From contig OX597830.1 in NCBI GenBank assembly GCA_951406725.2, positions 25,172,001-25,236,000 on the forward strand: DNA of 64,000 nt. The letters are read 5' to 3'. Of the stretch, positions 1 through 39,100 are shown in pieces. How positions within the stretch are numbered: the first letter of the stretch is position 1; every line of letters begins with the position of its first letter. Position numbers: made by a program. Origin of the DNA: Octopus vulgaris. Taxonomy: Eukaryota.

Positions 1-3000
1 CCTGAAGAAATTATTACAACTCACACTGCAGAACCTCTAACAGCGACAACAAAACTACCATCTCTAACAACTCTAGCCGAAGAAGTAGAAACATCTATGC
101 CCACCACAATTTCTGCTCCCACAGTGAGTACACCAACTCAAACAACTATTGCTTCCTCAACTGCAGAACATACGACTGTCACTGAACTGCCACGCACTGA
201 CAAAACTACAACTGAAGCTACCACATTCACATCGACTGAAAAGACTCCAGAAACAAAACACAAACAGGCACACCAGAAATGATTACAGCACCTGTCATGG
301 ACACAACTGCACACATTGCATCAACAACTCAAATTCAAGCAGAAACAGAGGAATCAACTTCCCAACTTCCTACAACAATACATCTTATAACACCTACTAC
401 TGAAACAACAACACAACTTGAAGAAATTATTACAACTCACACTGCAGAACCTCTAACAGCGACAACAAAACTACCATCTCTAACAACTCTAGCCGAAGAA
501 GTAGAAACATCTATGCCCACAACAATTTCTGCTCCCACAGTGAGTACACCAACTCAAACAACTATTGCTTCCTCAACTGCAGAACATACGACTGTCACTG
601 AACTGCCACGCACTGACAAAACTACAACTGAAGCTACCACATTCACATCCACTGAAAAGACTCCAGAAACAACCACACAAACAGGCACACCAGAAATGAT
701 TACAGCACCTGTCACGGACACAACTGCACACATTGCATCAACAACACAAATTCAAAAAGAAACAGAGAAGACAACTTCCCAACTTCCTACAACAACACAT
801 CTTTTAACACCTACTACTGAAACAACAACACAACCTGAAGAAATCATTACAACTCACACTGCAGAAACTCTAACAGCGACAACAAAACAACCATCTCTAT
901 CAACTCTAGCCGAAGAAGTAGAAACATCTATGCACACCACAATTTCTGCTCCCACAGTGAGTACACCAACTCAAACAACTATTGCTTCCTCAACTGCAGA
1001 ACATACGACTGTCACTGAACTGCCAGGCACTGACAAAACTACAACTGAAGCTACCACATTCACATCGACTGAAAAGACTCCAGAAACAACCACACAAACA
1101 GGCACACCAGAAATGATTACAGCACCTGTCACGGACACAACTGCACACATTGCATCAACAACTCAAATTCAAACAGAAACAGAGGAATCAACTTCCCAAC
1201 TTCCTACAACAACACATCTTATAACACCTACTACTGAAACAACAACACAACCTGAAGAAATTATTACAACTCACACTGCAGAACCTCTAACAGCGACAAC
1301 AAAACTACCATCTCTAACAACTCTAGCCGAAGAAGTAGAAACATCTATGCCCACCACAATTTCTGCTCCCACAGTGAGTACACCAACTCAAACAACTATT
1401 GCTTCCTCAACTGCAGAACATACGACTGTCACTGAACTGCCACGCACTGACAAAACTACAACTGAAGCTACCACATTCACATCGACTGAAAAGACTCCAG
1501 AAACTACCACACAAACAGGCACACCAGAAATGATTACAGCACCTGTCACGGACACAACTGCACACATTGCATCAACAACTCAAATTCAAACAGAAACCGA
1601 GAAGACAACTTCCCAACTTCCTACAACAACACATTTCATAACACCTACTACTGAAACAACAACACAACCTGAAGAAATTATTACAACTCACACTGCAGAA
1701 CCTCTAACAGCGCCAACAAAACTACCATCTCTAACAACTCTAGCCGAAGAAGTAGAAACATCTATGCCCACCACAATTTCTGCTCCCACAGTGAGTACAC
1801 CAACTCAAACAACTATTGCTTCCTCAACTGCAGAACATACGACTGTCACTGAACTGCCACGCACTGACAAAACTACAACTGAAGCTACCACATTCACATC
1901 GACTGAAAAGACTCCAGAAACAACCACACAAACAGGCACACCAGAAATGATTACAGCACCTGTCACGGACACTACTGCACACATTTCATCAACAACTCAA
2001 ATTCAAACAGAAACCGAGAAGACAACTTCCCAACTTCCTACAACAACACATCTTATAACACCTACTACTGAAACAACAACACAACCTGAAGAAATTATTA
2101 CAACTCACACTGCAGAACCTCTAACAGCAACAACAAAACTACCATCTCTAACAACTCTAGCCGAAGAAGTAGAAACATCTATGCCCACCACAATTTCTGC
2201 TCCCACAGTGAGTACACCAACTCAAACAACTATTGCTTCCTCAACTGCAGAACATACGACTGTCACTGAACTGCCACGCACTGACAAAACTACAACTGAA
2301 GCTACCACATTCACATCGACTGAAAAGACTCCAGAAACAACCACACAAACAGGCACACCAGAAATGATTACAGCACCTGTCACGGACACAACTGCACACA
2401 TTGCATCAACAACTCAAATTCAAACAGAAACAGAGGAATCAACTTCCCAACTTCCAACAACAACACATCTTATAACACCTACTACTGAAACAACAACACA
2501 ACCTGAAGAAATTATTACAACTTACACTGAAGAACCTCTACAAGCGACAACAAAACTACCATCACTAACAACTCTAGCCGAAGAAGTAGAAACATCTATG
2601 CCCACAACTATTTCTGCTCCCACACTGAGTACACCGACTCAAACAACAATTGCTTCCTCAACTGCAGTACATACGACTGTCACTGAACTGCCACGCACTG
2701 ACAAAACTACAACTGAAGCTACCACATTCACATCGACAGAAAAGACTCCAGAAACAACCACACAAATAGGCACACCACAAATGATTACAGCACCTGTCAC
2801 GGACACAACTGCACACATTGCATCAACAACAGAAATTCAAACAGAAACCGAGAAGACAACTTCACAACTTCCTACAACAACACATCTTATAACAGCTACT
2901 ACTGAAACAACAACACAACCTGAAGAAATTATTACAACTCACACTGCAGAACCTCTAACAGCGACAACAAGACTACCATCTCTAACAACTCTAGCCGAAG

Positions 3001-36100: not shown

Positions 36101-39100
36101 AATATTAACTAGATTATGGCTGTGAGATAACAGTTTATTCAAAGTAGCCGTTCACAGCTTCAACCCAGCTCTAGAAGCTGGTGCATTCCTCACTGTGTCC
36201 TTGGGAAGATCTTCAAACCCTTCCTTGATCTTGGCCACCAACTTGGCTTTTGTGTTGCAGGCAGAAAGGTTGGTTTCTCTTTCTCAATTGTACCCCATAG
36301 ATAGTAATCCATAGGAGTACAATCAGGAGTGTTGAGAGACCAGAAATTGGGGCTGATAAAGCCATAGAAATTCTCCAACAACCACTTCTGGTTCTTTCTG
36401 GAGGTATGGCAAGGAGCCAAATCCTACTGCCACACATATGGCCTTCCAATAGCAACTCATTTCAGTCAGGGATTGACTACAGTCTCCAGGATCTTCACAT
36501 AGTCGTCTGAATTGAGCCTAAGGTTCTGTTCAAAGATGTGGAGATTAATTCCAGCATGCAGGCAGTTAGAAAGCTTGCTGTGTCCCTTTTTGTTGACCAC
36601 AGCTTCGTAGTCTCCCTTACAGCTGTCCATGTCATGTCTTATACCCTTTACAGTGTTCATAGAGCACTGAGCGGCAGTCATGATGTCGGCATTTTGATAC
36701 CCAACATGAATCAGCATAATACAGGTAACTCTCTTCCAATATTCAGATAGCTTCCAGTCCACCATGTCAGGAAACTTTTCTCAATTAAAACTTTAATCTT
36801 TATGCTCACTGGGGCAGCTACAGAGGAAATGTTAAGGGACCCTCTTTTAATATACAAGGGATAGGATGGAGTTTCGCTCTTGACTCATGAGTGAATGTTT
36901 GTTGGATTTGGTAAAGCATTGCAGACAATCAGAACCAGAAATCTGATATGCTCAATATCAGTCCACCAAAAATCAGACCAGGTAACATTCTACTGCAGTA
37001 TATTGGCCCACCTTGTCCAGGCTTGCTTCTCCTACACTTATGTAGACTTCTTGGAGCAGATGTTACTGCATTATTCCTGCAATACTTCCAATCTGATGAG
37101 TTACGAAATATTCATGCCTGAGCTTTCAACAGTTCCAACCAGAGCCCTCTGCTTCAACCATACTTCTGCCACCTACAACTCTCTAACAGCCCTCCACTTC
37201 TTACCTGTGCAAACTTCAATGTCAGTTACTACTACTTTCATGTCACTGGAATCTCTGTACTTTGTGGCTTCTCTTGTTCTTCACACAACAAACTTCTCTG
37301 AGAGTCCACTGAATGGGAGTTGTAATGCTATTTCCCAATGTTTTTGTTAGTTCTGTGGATGGAAACTGTCCTTCAGGTTGCTGTCAAAAGATTTCCCCCA
37401 AGCTCTTGACTGTTTGTTCTGTTGAGATTGGGAAAGCAATGCTGGAAAAGATGAAGCAAAACTTTTCTACCATTTTTCCTTTCTTTAGCACAAGAGACCT
37501 TGATTTTGATAGTCTGAAGTTCATCCATGTCCATGAAATGGGCTTCTTGAGTCCTTAATAGATGTTCCTGTTATCACACCAACTGTTGTTGTTGTTAGGT
37601 CATCTACAGAGGCTCTTATTGGTGGCTGTTGCACACCAGATTCATACAGAGTCCTTGACACTCTACCTCTGCTAACTTGACCAGCATGTTCTTGACAAGG
37701 GCATAAAGAGTTACTGAGATGGTGTAACCTTTTCCAGTATGTACCACTTAGATGCTGTAGGTACACAGGTGACTCTTATCTGGAAGATATGGTAGTAATC
37801 CAGAATGAGGCCAGTGATCTTCCTGGGGACATGGTGCCTTTGAAGAACCTCCTCTATCAGCTTGCGTGGCATGAACCTATAGGTATTTGCAAGGTCCAAC
37901 CGCAGAACCCACCAAATCTCCCTTACCTTTTCTCACTTCTCTTAAGAGCTATATGGCCATCCCAGTGTGCTCTAAGCAGTGAGGTATTGCAGCGAAGCAT
38001 CAGTGGTGCTTCTCCCTGGTACAAAACCAAACTGCATCTCATCTAGATTAACTCTCTTCATAATGAGTTGGGATATGACCCTCTCCGTAACACACATATA
38101 CATATATACATGTACACACATATACATATAGCTACATGCACACATACATGCATATCTGTGTATGAATATACATACATACTGGAGTGGTAACTTTTTCACT
38201 GAACACTACAGAATTTACAGAATCTTATGTTCAGTTCACTTTAAACAGATATTATGATAGCAATAAAGAAATTTTCATTTGTACTTACATGTTAAAACTC
38301 TTTTTCCTCTGCAACATTATCGTCATGCTAAGTTCATACAATATTTCTATCTTTTGTACTTTTTCAGGTTCAATAATTTTTGGATTTGACCTACTATCAC
38401 TAGGCACACGCCGAGCCTCATTTATTCACAAATTCATCAATGCCTTCATGCCATATTCTGGTTACAGTCATTATAGTATTGTTTCATGGAGTAAAAGGCC
38501 CTTGCACGTAAATTTCCCACTATCCAAACATGATTCTGATCGGAGAGAGCCACACATACCAGACTTGGCAGATATAGTGGAAAAAATCAAGAACGACCTA
38601 TCTTCTACTTCTGTACAAGAACATAACTTGGGTAATGGAGATATACCACCAGTCGTTGTACTGTTTGTTGACCCTCTCGAGACAAGTCTTACAATGCCTT
38701 TAATCAAAGCAGTTAGGCAATTGAAAAAATCTCGTGCAAGAGTATTTTTATTAAATATTGGAATCAGCAAATGGCCAAAACAAGGAACTCTAGAATTGCT
38801 TAGTAGCGAACCAAGTCAGTTGCATATTGTCCATGCTCCATCCTATCGGCAACTACTAAACAGGGCTTTGAACACTCCCTACCAGTTCCGATTGCTGTCA
38901 AATCAATATAAACCCATTACATTCAAAAAGACTAATGCTCCTGCATATTAAAAAAATTTCTAACAAAAGAATATAGACTCAAACATTTGGCTAATTGTCA
39001 GATTTCAAATTTAAAAAAGCATTGGTAATTCAATGTTTTGGTCTCATAATAAAAAATAACCTTTAAGTTGAGGAAATATCTAGCAATATTTATATGTTAA

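What the first reader, a model, noticed from the sequence alone, without database searches (positions are those of the whole stretch)
1..38951. Giant Cys-free mucin ending in a single degenerate VWA domain: an atypical secreted mucus/adhesive/matrix architecture
Seen: more than 31.8 kb of PTS-coding sequence with no Cys in the corrected frame, frame-compatible splicing to one ~194-aa terminal exon, no transmembrane helix, no cystine knot, no VWD/C8/TIL or SEA domain. Established: gel-forming mucins (MUC2/MUC5 type) polymerise through Cys-rich VWD and CK domains, membrane mucins end in SEA/EGF-TM, and VWA domains mediate non-covalent matrix binding in collagen VI/XII, matrilins and molluscan matrix proteins such as Pif, BMSP and PTMP1. 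Inference: a >1 MDa glycoprotein that anchors or assembles through a C-terminal VWA rather than disulfides, possibly a cephalopod skin mucus, sucker, egg-jelly or glue component. The N-terminus lies outside the window.
Basis: partly seen in the sequence, partly recalled or inferred. Interest (0 to 1): 0.8.

Follow-up and report, generated by a model that had tools for sequence, protein, structure and literature searches.

The report
Giant octopus mucin ending in VWA
This is the 3' part of a real but barely annotated giant, cysteine-free, threonine-rich mucin-like gene of the common octopus that ends in a degenerate von Willebrand A domain and belongs to an uncharacterised cephalopod protein family.

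Summary
Window 1-31879 (+) is one Thr/Ser/Pro-rich coding array of 139-aa and 135-aa tandem units. Read piece by piece in its local frame it has 10,609 codons with 0 stops, 0 Cys and 0 Trp. A GT-AG, phase-1 intron (31880-38367) leads to a 194-aa terminal exon.

That exon has a von Willebrand A (VWA) fold: AlphaFold2 pLDDT 83, and the listed Foldseek PDB hits are integrin I-domains, VWF A3, collagen VI, PTMP1 and other proteins I recall as VWA-bearing. It keeps only one metal-site (MIDAS) residue. It scores below the Pfam threshold (19 vs 23.8 bits).

The window is Octopus vulgaris. The annotated model there (885 aa) and the one in O. bimaculoides (862 aa) use the same junction, but both start inside the repeats.

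- **Family architecture.** The exon belongs to a cephalopod family whose nine longest members all carry a canonical N-terminal VWA domain, then a Thr-rich linker, then this domain. "Single VWA" is therefore probably wrong for the whole protein.
- **Broken frame.** The array's frame changes 14 times through small indels. I read these as Nanopore assembly errors rather than gene decay, but this is not proven.

Function and tissue remain inferred.

The parts
1..31879 (+). 3' part of one giant Thr/Ser/Pro-rich (PTS) coding exon. It runs off the window's 5' edge. Its frame changes 14 times through small indels and it has no stop in the local frame.
   Evidence: The last 2,074 bases (from 29806) are in the annotated model P0020.
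1..6559 (+). Array of 417-bp (139-aa) units, 15.7 copies, 92% matches.
   Evidence: translation of two units.
6560..8901 (+). Weakly repetitive PTS stretch. It contains an 18-bp unit x17.3 at 7140-7450 that encodes (TTTRRP)n.
8902..30383 (+). Arrays of 405-bp (135-aa) units: 37.2 copies at 8902-23968, 2.8 at 24649-25762 and 9.8 at 26443-30383. Neighbouring units alternate between about 94% and 98-99% identity to a reference unit.
   Evidence: translation.
23100..24648 (+). First copy of a ~1.5-kb block of divergent units. It recurs at about 24894-26442 and 29515-31063 with 96-100% identity. The 949-bp core (23700-24648, 25494-26442, 30115-31063) is 99.7-99.8% identical.
31064..31879 (+). Unique Ser/Thr/Asn-rich tail of the giant exon. 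It is well conserved in the O. bimaculoides model and ends at the donor AAAG|GTAAGA.
31880..38367 (+). Intron of 6,488 bp, GT...AG, phase 1, with a pyrimidine tract before the acceptor. It holds a reverse-transcriptase fragment on the minus strand.
   Evidence: The junction is used by P0020 and P0001.
38368..38951 (+). Terminal exon coding part: a 194-aa VWA-fold domain without a working MIDAS motif and without Cys, followed by a 17-aa tail and a TAA stop.
39048..39053 (+). AATAAA, a candidate polyadenylation signal about 100 bases after the stop.
   Evidence: Read directly; not tested.

Best explanation
The window holds the 3' end of a real Octopus vulgaris gene for a giant secreted mucin-like glycoprotein.

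**What it is.** The gene belongs to a family seen so far in cephalopods. Its short members (about 360-740 aa) are built as signal peptide, canonical VWA domain, Thr-rich linker, and a C-terminal VWA-fold domain that has lost its metal-binding site. In this gene the linker has been expanded by tandem duplication of 139-aa and 135-aa units to more than 10,600 residues.

**Why it is under-annotated.** The frame changes in the array are mostly consensus indel errors of a Nanopore-based assembly. They explain why only an 885-aa fragment is annotated.

**How it works (inferred).** The Thr/Ser/Pro array is densely O-glycosylated and forms an extended bottle-brush more than 1 MDa in size. The globular VWA-type end or ends bind other matrix or mucus components, or each other, without disulfide bonds. 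The molecule would then be tethered or networked by its ends rather than polymerised through Cys-rich VWD and cystine-knot domains.

**Shown versus inferred.** Shown: the coding array, the splice, the VWA fold, the loss of MIDAS, the family architecture and the species. Inferred: the upstream signal peptide and N-terminal VWA, glycosylation, secretion, the binding role and the tissue.
For: **Coding array.** 0 stops, 0 Cys and 0 Trp in 10,609 codons read in 15 separate pieces, against 0.0487 stops per codon expected from composition and 109-985 stops in the fixed frames.

**Splice.** The sites are phase-compatible GT-AG. The junction is present in P0020 (O. vulgaris, 100% identity, 885 aa) and P0001 (O. 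bimaculoides LOC106879988, 862 aa). The two models are 82% identical over 878 columns, with an open frame in both.

**Family.**
- 19 proteins match the terminal exon at E<=1e-3 among 1.84 billion representatives, 12 of them at E<=1e-10.
- 9 of 9 long members carry an N-terminal Pfam VWA, E 2.6e-30 to 8.3e-43.
- The 5 members that carry names are all cephalopod: O. vulgaris x2, O. bimaculoides, Acanthosepion pharaonis and Argonauta hians.

**VWA fold of the terminal exon.**
- Pfam VWA at E 0.0017 for the exon; 13 of 16 family domains match at E<=0.1, best 3.1e-7.
- Two canonical VWA proteins are hit at 2.0e-7 and 4.5e-4.
- A profile of the 16 domains against PDB gives 46 sequences at E<=1. I recognise 45 of them from recall as VWA or I-domain proteins.
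- hhalign against the family's own N-terminal VWA gives probability 94.9%, E 4.6e-8, over 124 columns.
- The AlphaFold2 model has pLDDT 83.0 and pTM 0.79.
- Foldseek against PDB gives 196 matches at E<=1e-3. The best is the integrin alpha-X I-domain at 2.4e-7, TM 0.61.
- The ESM Atlas neighbours shown all carry PF00092.

**Two separate domains.** The AlphaFold2 model of relative P0003 shows two folded domains joined by a linker with pLDDT below 50; pTM is 0.44.

**Indels as assembly errors.**
- All breaks characterised are small indels: 13 single-base events and one 10-base insertion. There are no nonsense substitutions.
- The published O. vulgaris chromosome assembly was built from Nanopore reads and polished with linked short reads and Nanopore reads (PMC10700109, passages read).
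Against: - There are 14 frame changes in 31.9 kb, and only about half of the indels lie in short homopolymers.
- Among 21 intact 405-bp units, pN/pS is 1.09 in the Thr-rich register. There is no sign of purifying selection on the amino-acid sequence.
- The test for missing nonsense changes has no power on that sample: 1.37 stops are expected, and 462 of 2000 simulations gave none.
- Neither annotated model has a signal peptide, and both start inside the repeats.
- No database protein of 2000-6365 aa matched the 3,637-aa ORF.
- I have no transcript, proteome or glycosylation evidence.
- I did not confirm that the window comes from the assembly described in the paper. I infer it from the species name and the 79,964,032-bp contig.
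- The exon itself is below Pfam's gathering score (19 vs 23.8 bits), and the PDB profile hits are weak (best E 0.0016).
- One relative (P0012) lacks the N-terminal VWA.
- The triplicated near-identical block may mean the array is misassembled.
Confidence: 0.72

Rival explanations
1. Decaying gene. The indels are real. The giant array is no longer translated as one protein, and at most a short product such as the annotated 885-aa model, or nothing, is made.
For: There are 14 frame changes and pN/pS is 1.09 among units. The annotated models are short and lack a signal peptide. No long model was found for the 3,637-aa ORF.
Against: - No nonsense substitution occurs in 10,609 locally in-frame codons, although about 4% of randomly placed substitutions create stops (1.37 per 32). 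A gene with this many real indels would be expected to have several. This rests on the usual excess of substitutions over indels, which I recall rather than tested.
- The assembly technology is indel-prone in tandem repeats.
- The 3' 860-880 residues are open and 82% identical in two octopus species, with the splice kept.
- pN/pS near 1 is expected for PTS repeats, where composition rather than sequence is selected (established knowledge of mucins, recalled).
Confidence: 0.15
2. The array's length and internal order are partly an assembly artefact. The gene is real, but '>31.8 kb' and the triplicated block do not reflect the true locus.
For: A ~1.5-kb block occurs three times at 96-100% identity, with a 949-bp core at 99.7-99.8%. 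The third copy is the one that leads into the unique tail. The indels cluster in a few places, for example six between about 11.1 and 12.3 kb, as expected of poorly supported consensus. Nanopore assembly of 405-bp tandem units is error-prone (and inference).
Against: Higher-order duplications of this kind are common in real mucin arrays (recalled). The flanks of the three copies differ cleanly. There is no N run or gap in the window.
Confidence: 0.3
3. Classical gel-forming mucin after all. Cys-rich VWD/C8/TIL domains lie upstream of the window, and the protein polymerises by disulfides at its N-terminus.
For: The N-terminus is outside the window. UniRef labels P0020 'Mucin-5AC-like'.
Against: No relative of the terminal domain has such domains. 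Of the 13 family proteins scanned, 9 have only VWA-type Pfam families and 4 have none or a weak C-terminal VWA match. The label is an automatic name for a Thr-rich fragment in which Pfam finds nothing. There is no cystine knot at the C-terminus, where gel-forming mucins have one.
Confidence: 0.07

Closest known systems
Cephalopod 'VWFA domain-containing' proteins of the type signal peptide / VWA / Thr-rich linker / MIDAS-less VWA-like domain. Examples: P0022 Octopus vulgaris (741 aa), P0013 Argonauta hians 'collagen alpha-5(VI) chain-like' (707 aa), P0021 Acanthosepion pharaonis, and the unnamed P0003-P0009.
   Same: The C-terminal domain is homologous over its whole length (E 8.6e-31 to 3.8e-09, 25-40% identity). 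It always lies at the C-terminus after a Thr-rich linker. Family motifs are kept (Y160 and P171 in 16 of 16; FVD, LSSxP).
   Different: The linker here exceeds 10,600 residues, against roughly 70-320 in the relatives. The family's one well-kept Cys (12 of 16) is Arg here and in O. bimaculoides. The N-terminal VWA cannot be seen in the window. I found no paper on the family.
PTMP1, proximal thread matrix protein 1 of the mussel byssus (PDB 4cn8, 4cn9, 4cnb).
   Same: It is a molluscan secreted matrix protein made of two VWA domains. It is hit by the C-domain profile (E 0.017), by the fold search (9.2e-6) and by a relative's N-terminal VWA (1.6e-29).
   Different: Going by the PDB entry titles and my recollection, PTMP1's two VWA domains are adjacent, it has a metal-occupied MIDAS, and it has no mucin array. 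Here the two domains are independent, as shown by the relative's model with pTM 0.44, and the C-terminal one lacks MIDAS.
Collagen VI alpha-3 VWA domains and integrin I-domains.
   Same: They share the alpha/beta VWA fold. The family's N-terminal VWA is closest to collagen VI alpha-3 (2.1e-72 over 6 stretches).
   Different: There is no collagen triple helix. The terminal domain keeps only the Asp of the beta-4 'TDG' position. The helix starts right after Asp8, so there is no DxSxS loop.
Gel-forming mucins (MUC2 / MUC5AC type).
   Same: Both have a very large tandem-repeat PTS exon, Thr-rich and presumably O-glycosylated.
   Different: There are no VWD, C8, TIL or cystine-knot domains in the window, and no Cys at all in 10,803 residues.
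Lubricin / PRG4-type end-anchored mucins (named from recall; no tool returned it).
   Same: Working likeness only: a long mucin domain flanked by small globular binding domains.
   Different: The end domains are unrelated (somatomedin B and hemopexin in lubricin, as I recall). No homology was tested or claimed.

Membership tests
VWA domain superfamily (Pfam PF00092) | Sequence match at or above Pfam's gathering score | tested here: not met
   The exon scores 19 bits, E 0.0017, against a cut-off of 23.8. It covers profile positions 23-168 of 174. 13 of 16 family domains match at E<=0.1, best 3.1e-7.
VWA domain superfamily (Pfam PF00092) | Alpha/beta Rossmann-like VWA fold and profile-level homology | tested here: met
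   AlphaFold2 pLDDT 83, pTM 0.79. Foldseek gives 196 PDB matches at E<=1e-3; the listed top hits are VWA or I-domain proteins, TM 0.48-0.62. hhalign to canonical VWA gives probability 94.9%, E 4.6e-8. Canonical VWA proteins are hit at 2.0e-7.
VWA domain superfamily (Pfam PF00092) | MIDAS metal site (DxSxS, Thr, Asp) | tested here: not met
   The N-terminal motif reads D-L-L-S-L-G, and a helix starts at residue 9. The first 36 residues do not align to canonical VWA. The MIDAS Thr position is not kept. Only the Asp in 'FVD' is kept, in 14 of 16 members.
Cephalopod VWA / PTS / VWA-like family | C-terminal MIDAS-less VWA-like domain after a Thr-rich linker | tested here: met
Cephalopod VWA / PTS / VWA-like family | Signal peptide and canonical N-terminal VWA | not testable with these tools
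   The N-terminus lies upstream of the window. tblastn with 15 family and VWA proteins hits only 38.3-38.9 kb. No eukaryotic genome collection was available.
Gel-forming mucins | Large PTS tandem-repeat domain | tested here: met
Gel-forming mucins | VWD-C8-TIL assemblies and a C-terminal cystine knot | tested here: not met
   Pfam finds none in the array ORFs, in P0020 or in the terminal exon. There are 0 Cys. The N-terminal part upstream is unseen.
Membrane-tethered mucins | SEA (or similar) domain and a transmembrane helix near the C-terminus | tested here: not met
   There is no Pfam SEA match. The maximum 19-residue hydropathy is 1.43, below 1.6. The protein ends 17 residues after the VWA fold.

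The most novel reading that the evidence does not exclude
Cephalopods have a class of mucins of their own that build mucus or adhesive networks without any disulfide chemistry. A canonical, metal-binding VWA at one end of a megadalton bottle-brush would dock onto the MIDAS-less VWA at the other end of the next molecule, or onto a common matrix partner, giving reversible head-to-tail assembly. The octopus gene would be an extreme, Cys-purged expansion of that design; even the family's one well-kept Cys is replaced.
Probability: 0.12. Interest if true: 0.7.

Novelty: new variant of a known kind. Interest (0 to 1): 0.45.

Why it matters
**Annotation.** A protein of more than 1 MDa is represented in the databases only by an 885-aa 'hypothetical' or 'Mucin-5AC-like' fragment. 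Octopus mucus, egg-coat or adhesive proteomes searched against that annotation would miss or misassign it.

**Biology.** This would be a mucin design that is not built on Cys-rich VWD and cystine-knot polymerisation. It belongs to a family (VWA / linker / degenerate VWA) that appears restricted to cephalopods among the five named members, and on which I found no paper. If the ends mediate non-covalent tethering, it is a natural example of reversible mucus or glue assembly.

**Limits.** Giant PTS exons and VWA-bearing molluscan matrix proteins are both well known. Nothing here shows function.

Tried and rejected
- **PDB search with the exon alone.** phmmer gave 0 hits at E<=10. Only the family profile reached PDB, and weakly.
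- **The listing of cluster members for names.** The database was switched off. Names came instead from the two homologous-protein runs, and only for 5 proteins. The taxa of P0002-P0012 and P0015-P0019 remain unknown.
- **Search for an annotated long model.** The 3,637-aa ORF found nothing at 2000-6365 aa.
- **Selection tests on the repeats.** pN/pS was 1.09, and the nonsense test was underpowered. Neither separates a live gene from a dead one.
- **Two-domain model of relative P0003.** I hoped to see whether the two VWA domains pack. pTM was 0.44, with no confident packing and no contact map available.
- **Other scans.** tRNA and Rfam scans found nothing. Pfam on the intron and downstream ORFs found only transposon fragments.
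- **Literature.** Four searches found no description of the family or of LOC106879988. From the octopus skin-mucus proteome paper PMC11431876 I read passages only. It names mucins and VWA proteins generically. Its protein lists are in supplements, which were closed.
- **Readings rejected.** A non-coding satellite: rejected because the local frame is open and the annotated models run from the array into the VWA exon. A membrane mucin: rejected because there is no transmembrane helix or SEA domain.
- **Not done.**
  - I did not search or fold a joined exon model of my own. The exons were searched one by one, and the only sequences crossing the junction were the database models P0020 and P0001.
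  - The genome-contig collection (bacteria and archaea only) was not used, as it is irrelevant here.

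
Full report
**What is in the sequence**

Window 1-31879 on the + strand has a uniform, strongly skewed composition (A 40.6%, C 29.4%, T 19.4%, G 10.5%; GC skew about -0.47). This ends abruptly near 31.9 kb. Tandem Repeats Finder resolves it into:
- 417-bp units x15.7 at 1-6559;
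- an 18-bp unit x17.3 at 7140-7450;
- 405-bp units x37.2 at 8902-23968;
- further 405-bp arrays at 24649-25762 and 26443-30383.

These arrays show 86-95% matches and 0-2% indels. Both unit lengths are multiples of three. They translate to Thr-rich 139-aa and 135-aa peptides. The 18-bp unit encodes (TTTRRP)n. There is no N in the window.

**Is it coding, and is it intact?**

No single frame is open across the region. The Thr-rich frame hops between the three + frames.

I compared the disturbed units with clean units. Every break characterised is a small indel: 13 single-base events and one 10-base insertion in 11 regions. About half lie in short homopolymers. One further frame change near the window start was not characterised. 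In total there are 14 frame changes and 15 pieces.

I translated the 15 pieces separately, never joined. They give 10,609 codons with 0 stops, 0 Cys and 0 Trp. The composition is T 33.5%, S 9.4%, P 8.2%, E 7.7%, I 7.1%, Q 6.6%. Base composition predicts 0.0487 stops per codon, about 500 in total. The fixed frames contain 109-378 stops on the + strand and 479-985 on the - strand. The open Thr-rich frame is therefore not chance.

Two selection tests were uninformative:
- Among 21 gap-free in-frame 405-bp units, pN/pS is 1.09, and variable columns fall evenly on codon positions (24, 26 and 23 of 135 each).
- Random placement of the 32 singleton changes gave 1.37 stops on average, and 462 of 2000 runs gave none.

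**Assembly error or decay?**

The species is Octopus vulgaris. The terminal exon is 100% identical to P0020, 'Hypothetical predicted protein [Octopus vulgaris]' (UniRef 'Mucin-5AC-like'), found on a 79,964,032-bp contig.

I read passages of the paper describing the chromosome-level O. vulgaris assembly (PMC10700109). It states that the assembly was built from Oxford Nanopore reads (Guppy 5.0.11, NextDenovo) and polished with 10x Illumina and Nanopore reads. Short reads cannot be placed uniquely in 405-bp tandem units, so residual single-base indels are expected there. This is my inference.

The pattern is many indels and no nonsense substitution. That fits consensus error better than neutral decay, where substitutions normally outnumber indels (recalled knowledge). 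I rate assembly error as the main cause, but I did not verify that the window is from that assembly.

A second caveat concerns a ~1.5-kb block present three times, at 23100-24648, 24894-26442 and 29515-31063. The copies are 96-100% identical, and the 949-bp core is 99.7-99.8% identical. It may be a true higher-order duplication or a misassembly. The array length is therefore provisional.

**The splice and the end of the gene**

- The array frame ends at AAAG|GTAAGA (31879/31880), leaving one base of a codon.
- The acceptor TTTTCAG|G (38367/38368) follows a pyrimidine tract and supplies the other two bases.
- P0020 reads ...ISPMKG|SIIFGFD... and the O. bimaculoides model P0001 (LOC106879988, 862 aa) reads ...TSPMKG|SIIFGFD.... 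Two independent annotations therefore use this junction.
- The two models are 82% identical over 878 columns. The unique Ser/Thr/Asn tail before the junction is the best-conserved part.
- Both models start at a Met inside the repeats and have no signal peptide, so both are 5'-truncated.
- The coding sequence ends at TAA 38949-38951. An AATAAA lies at 39048-39053.
- tblastn with 15 family and VWA proteins finds nothing else in the window.

**The terminal exon is a VWA fold without a metal site**

Sequence evidence:
- Pfam VWA matches at E 0.0017 and 19 bits. This is below the gathering score of 23.8, but it spans profile positions 23-168 of 174.
- phmmer against PDB found nothing.
- An exhaustive phmmer search of 1.84 billion representatives found 19 proteins at E<=1e-3. 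Two of them are canonical multi-VWA proteins, P0014 at 2.0e-7 and P0018 at 4.5e-4.

I aligned the exon with the homologous domains of 15 of the 19 hits to make alignment A1. I dropped P0012 and P0019 as partial or chimeric, and P0014 and P0018 as canonical VWA proteins. Results with A1:
- Pfam VWA is matched by 13 of the 16 members at E<=0.1, best 3.1e-7.
- The A1 profile hits 46 PDB sequences at E<=1. All but one (stress-induced phosphoprotein 1) are proteins I recognise from recall as VWA or I-domain proteins: integrin alpha-E, alpha-M, alpha-L and alpha-X, Rpn10, PTMP1, collagen VI and TRAP. Only two reach E 0.0016.
- hhalign of A1 against the family's own N-terminal VWA domains gives probability 94.9%, E 4.6e-8, over 124 columns.

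Structure evidence:
- AlphaFold2 with A1 gives pLDDT 83.0 and pTM 0.79, with an alternating strand-helix pattern.
- Foldseek against PDB gives 196 matches at E<=1e-3. They are headed by the integrin alpha-X I-domain (2.4e-7, TM 0.61), collagen VI, VWF A3 and PTMP1.
- The ESM Atlas neighbours shown all carry PF00092.

The metal site is gone:
- The N-terminal motif is D-L-L-S-L-G, with a helix starting at residue 9.
- The first 36 residues do not align to canonical VWA.
- The MIDAS Thr is not kept.
- Only the Asp of 'FVD' remains, in 14 of 16 members.

The exon has no Cys. At residue 44, 12 of 16 family members have Cys, while this gene and its O. bimaculoides orthologue have Arg. There is no transmembrane segment (maximum hydropathy 1.43).

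**The family changes the picture**

I scanned 13 family proteins with Pfam:
- Nine long ones (P0003, P0004, P0005, P0007, P0008, P0009, P0013, P0016, P0022; 362-741 aa) all have a canonical N-terminal VWA, E 2.6e-30 to 8.3e-43.
- P0020, P0001 and P0012 have no family at E<=0.01.
- P0021 has only a weak C-terminal match.

By eye, the long proteins begin with a hydrophobic signal-like segment. They carry a DxSSS motif, then a Thr-rich linker, then the domain homologous to the window's exon. The N-terminal VWA of P0003 is closest to collagen VI alpha-3 (2.1e-72 over 6 stretches) and to mussel PTMP1 (1.6e-29).

An AlphaFold2 model of P0003 shows two separate folded domains and a disordered linker, with pTM 0.44. 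This is a beads-on-a-string arrangement rather than a packed pair.

P0012 has a signal-like start that runs directly into the Thr-rich region, so the N-terminal VWA is not universal. The five family members with names are all cephalopods.

Several short models (P0002, P0006, P0010) begin with Phe/Leu/Ser-rich residues. For P0002 these align to the window's pyrimidine tract before the acceptor. This suggests the domain is a single terminal exon in relatives too (inference).

**Most likely mechanism**

The window encodes 10,803 residues, about 1,166 kDa of polypeptide, with 43% Ser+Thr and 80 N-X-S/T sequons. By analogy with PTS domains in general (established knowledge), this would be a densely O-glycosylated, extended, hydrated chain.

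The only folded module in view is a VWA domain that cannot bind metal through a MIDAS. Such a domain would act as a protein-protein binding module, not as a metal-dependent adhesion site.

Together with a probable canonical VWA at the far N-terminus, the protein would be tethered or networked non-covalently by its ends. This works like collagen VI or PTMP1-type matrix VWA proteins. As a design it also resembles end-anchored mucins such as lubricin (recalled, not tested).

None of this is shown. There is no expression, localisation or binding evidence, and the tissue is unknown.

**Comparison and novelty**

It is not a gel-forming mucin: no VWD, C8, TIL or cystine knot, and no Cys in view. It is not a membrane mucin: no SEA domain or transmembrane helix.

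It belongs to the VWA superfamily by fold and profile. It does not meet Pfam's gathering score and does not have the MIDAS motif.

It belongs to an uncharacterised cephalopod family of VWA / PTS / VWA-like proteins, of which it is an extreme expansion. I found no paper on that family or on LOC106879988. The four searches were made, over open PubMed Central and bioRxiv only. Supplements of the octopus mucus proteome papers, which may list this protein, were closed. I read passages only of PMC11431876, PMC10475054 and PMC8976471.

I class it as a new variant of a known kind. It is interesting mainly as a badly under-annotated megadalton protein and as a possible disulfide-free mucin design.

**Verdict**

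Interest is moderate (0.45). The main open points are:
- whether the frame changes are real;
- how long the array really is;
- what lies at the N-terminus;
- where the gene is expressed.

Noticed in passing
window 23100-24648, 24894-26442, 29515-31063: A ~1.5-kb block of divergent repeat units occurs three times at 96-100% identity, with a 949-bp core at 99.7-99.8%. Only the third copy continues into the unique tail. It is either a recent higher-order duplication or a misassembly of the tandem array.
   Followed up: partly
window 7140-7450: An 18-bp unit x17.3 encodes a basic (TTTRRP)n block inside the otherwise acidic-to-neutral PTS region. It also creates a spurious 221-aa ORF on the minus strand (7029-7694).
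   Followed up: no
window 38496-38498 (residue 44 of the terminal exon): The one well-conserved Cys of the family's C-terminal domain (12 of 16 members) is Arg in this gene and in its O. bimaculoides orthologue. The whole window-encoded protein therefore has no Cys.
   Followed up: partly
window 32479-32886 (-): A reverse-transcriptase fragment (Pfam RVT_1, E 2.3e-9) lies inside the intron on the opposite strand. It is a remnant of a retroelement and was not studied further.
   Followed up: no
window 47805-48101 (-) and 53284-53601 (-): Mariner-type transposase fragments. The first matches Pfam Transposase_1 (E 7.7e-19). The second looks similar by eye but has no Pfam match at E<=0.01.
   Followed up: no
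window 45735-46138 (+), 61195-61579 (-), 57935-58406 (-): An interspersed repeat of about 400 bp occurs in three copies at 88-91% identity, next to TA/CA microsatellites. It is SINE-like, but ARAGORN and Rfam find no tRNA or known RNA in the window.
   Followed up: partly
window 62857-63054: A 44-46-bp tandem repeat x4.4, rich in CT dinucleotides, produces overlapping spurious Ser/Leu-rich ORFs.
   Followed up: no
proteins P0002, P0006, P0010 (relatives): These short database models of the C-terminal domain start with Phe/Leu/Ser-rich residues. For P0002 these align to the window's intron end (38328-38366). The models probably begin inside the upstream intron, and the exon boundary may be shared across the family.
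   Followed up: partly
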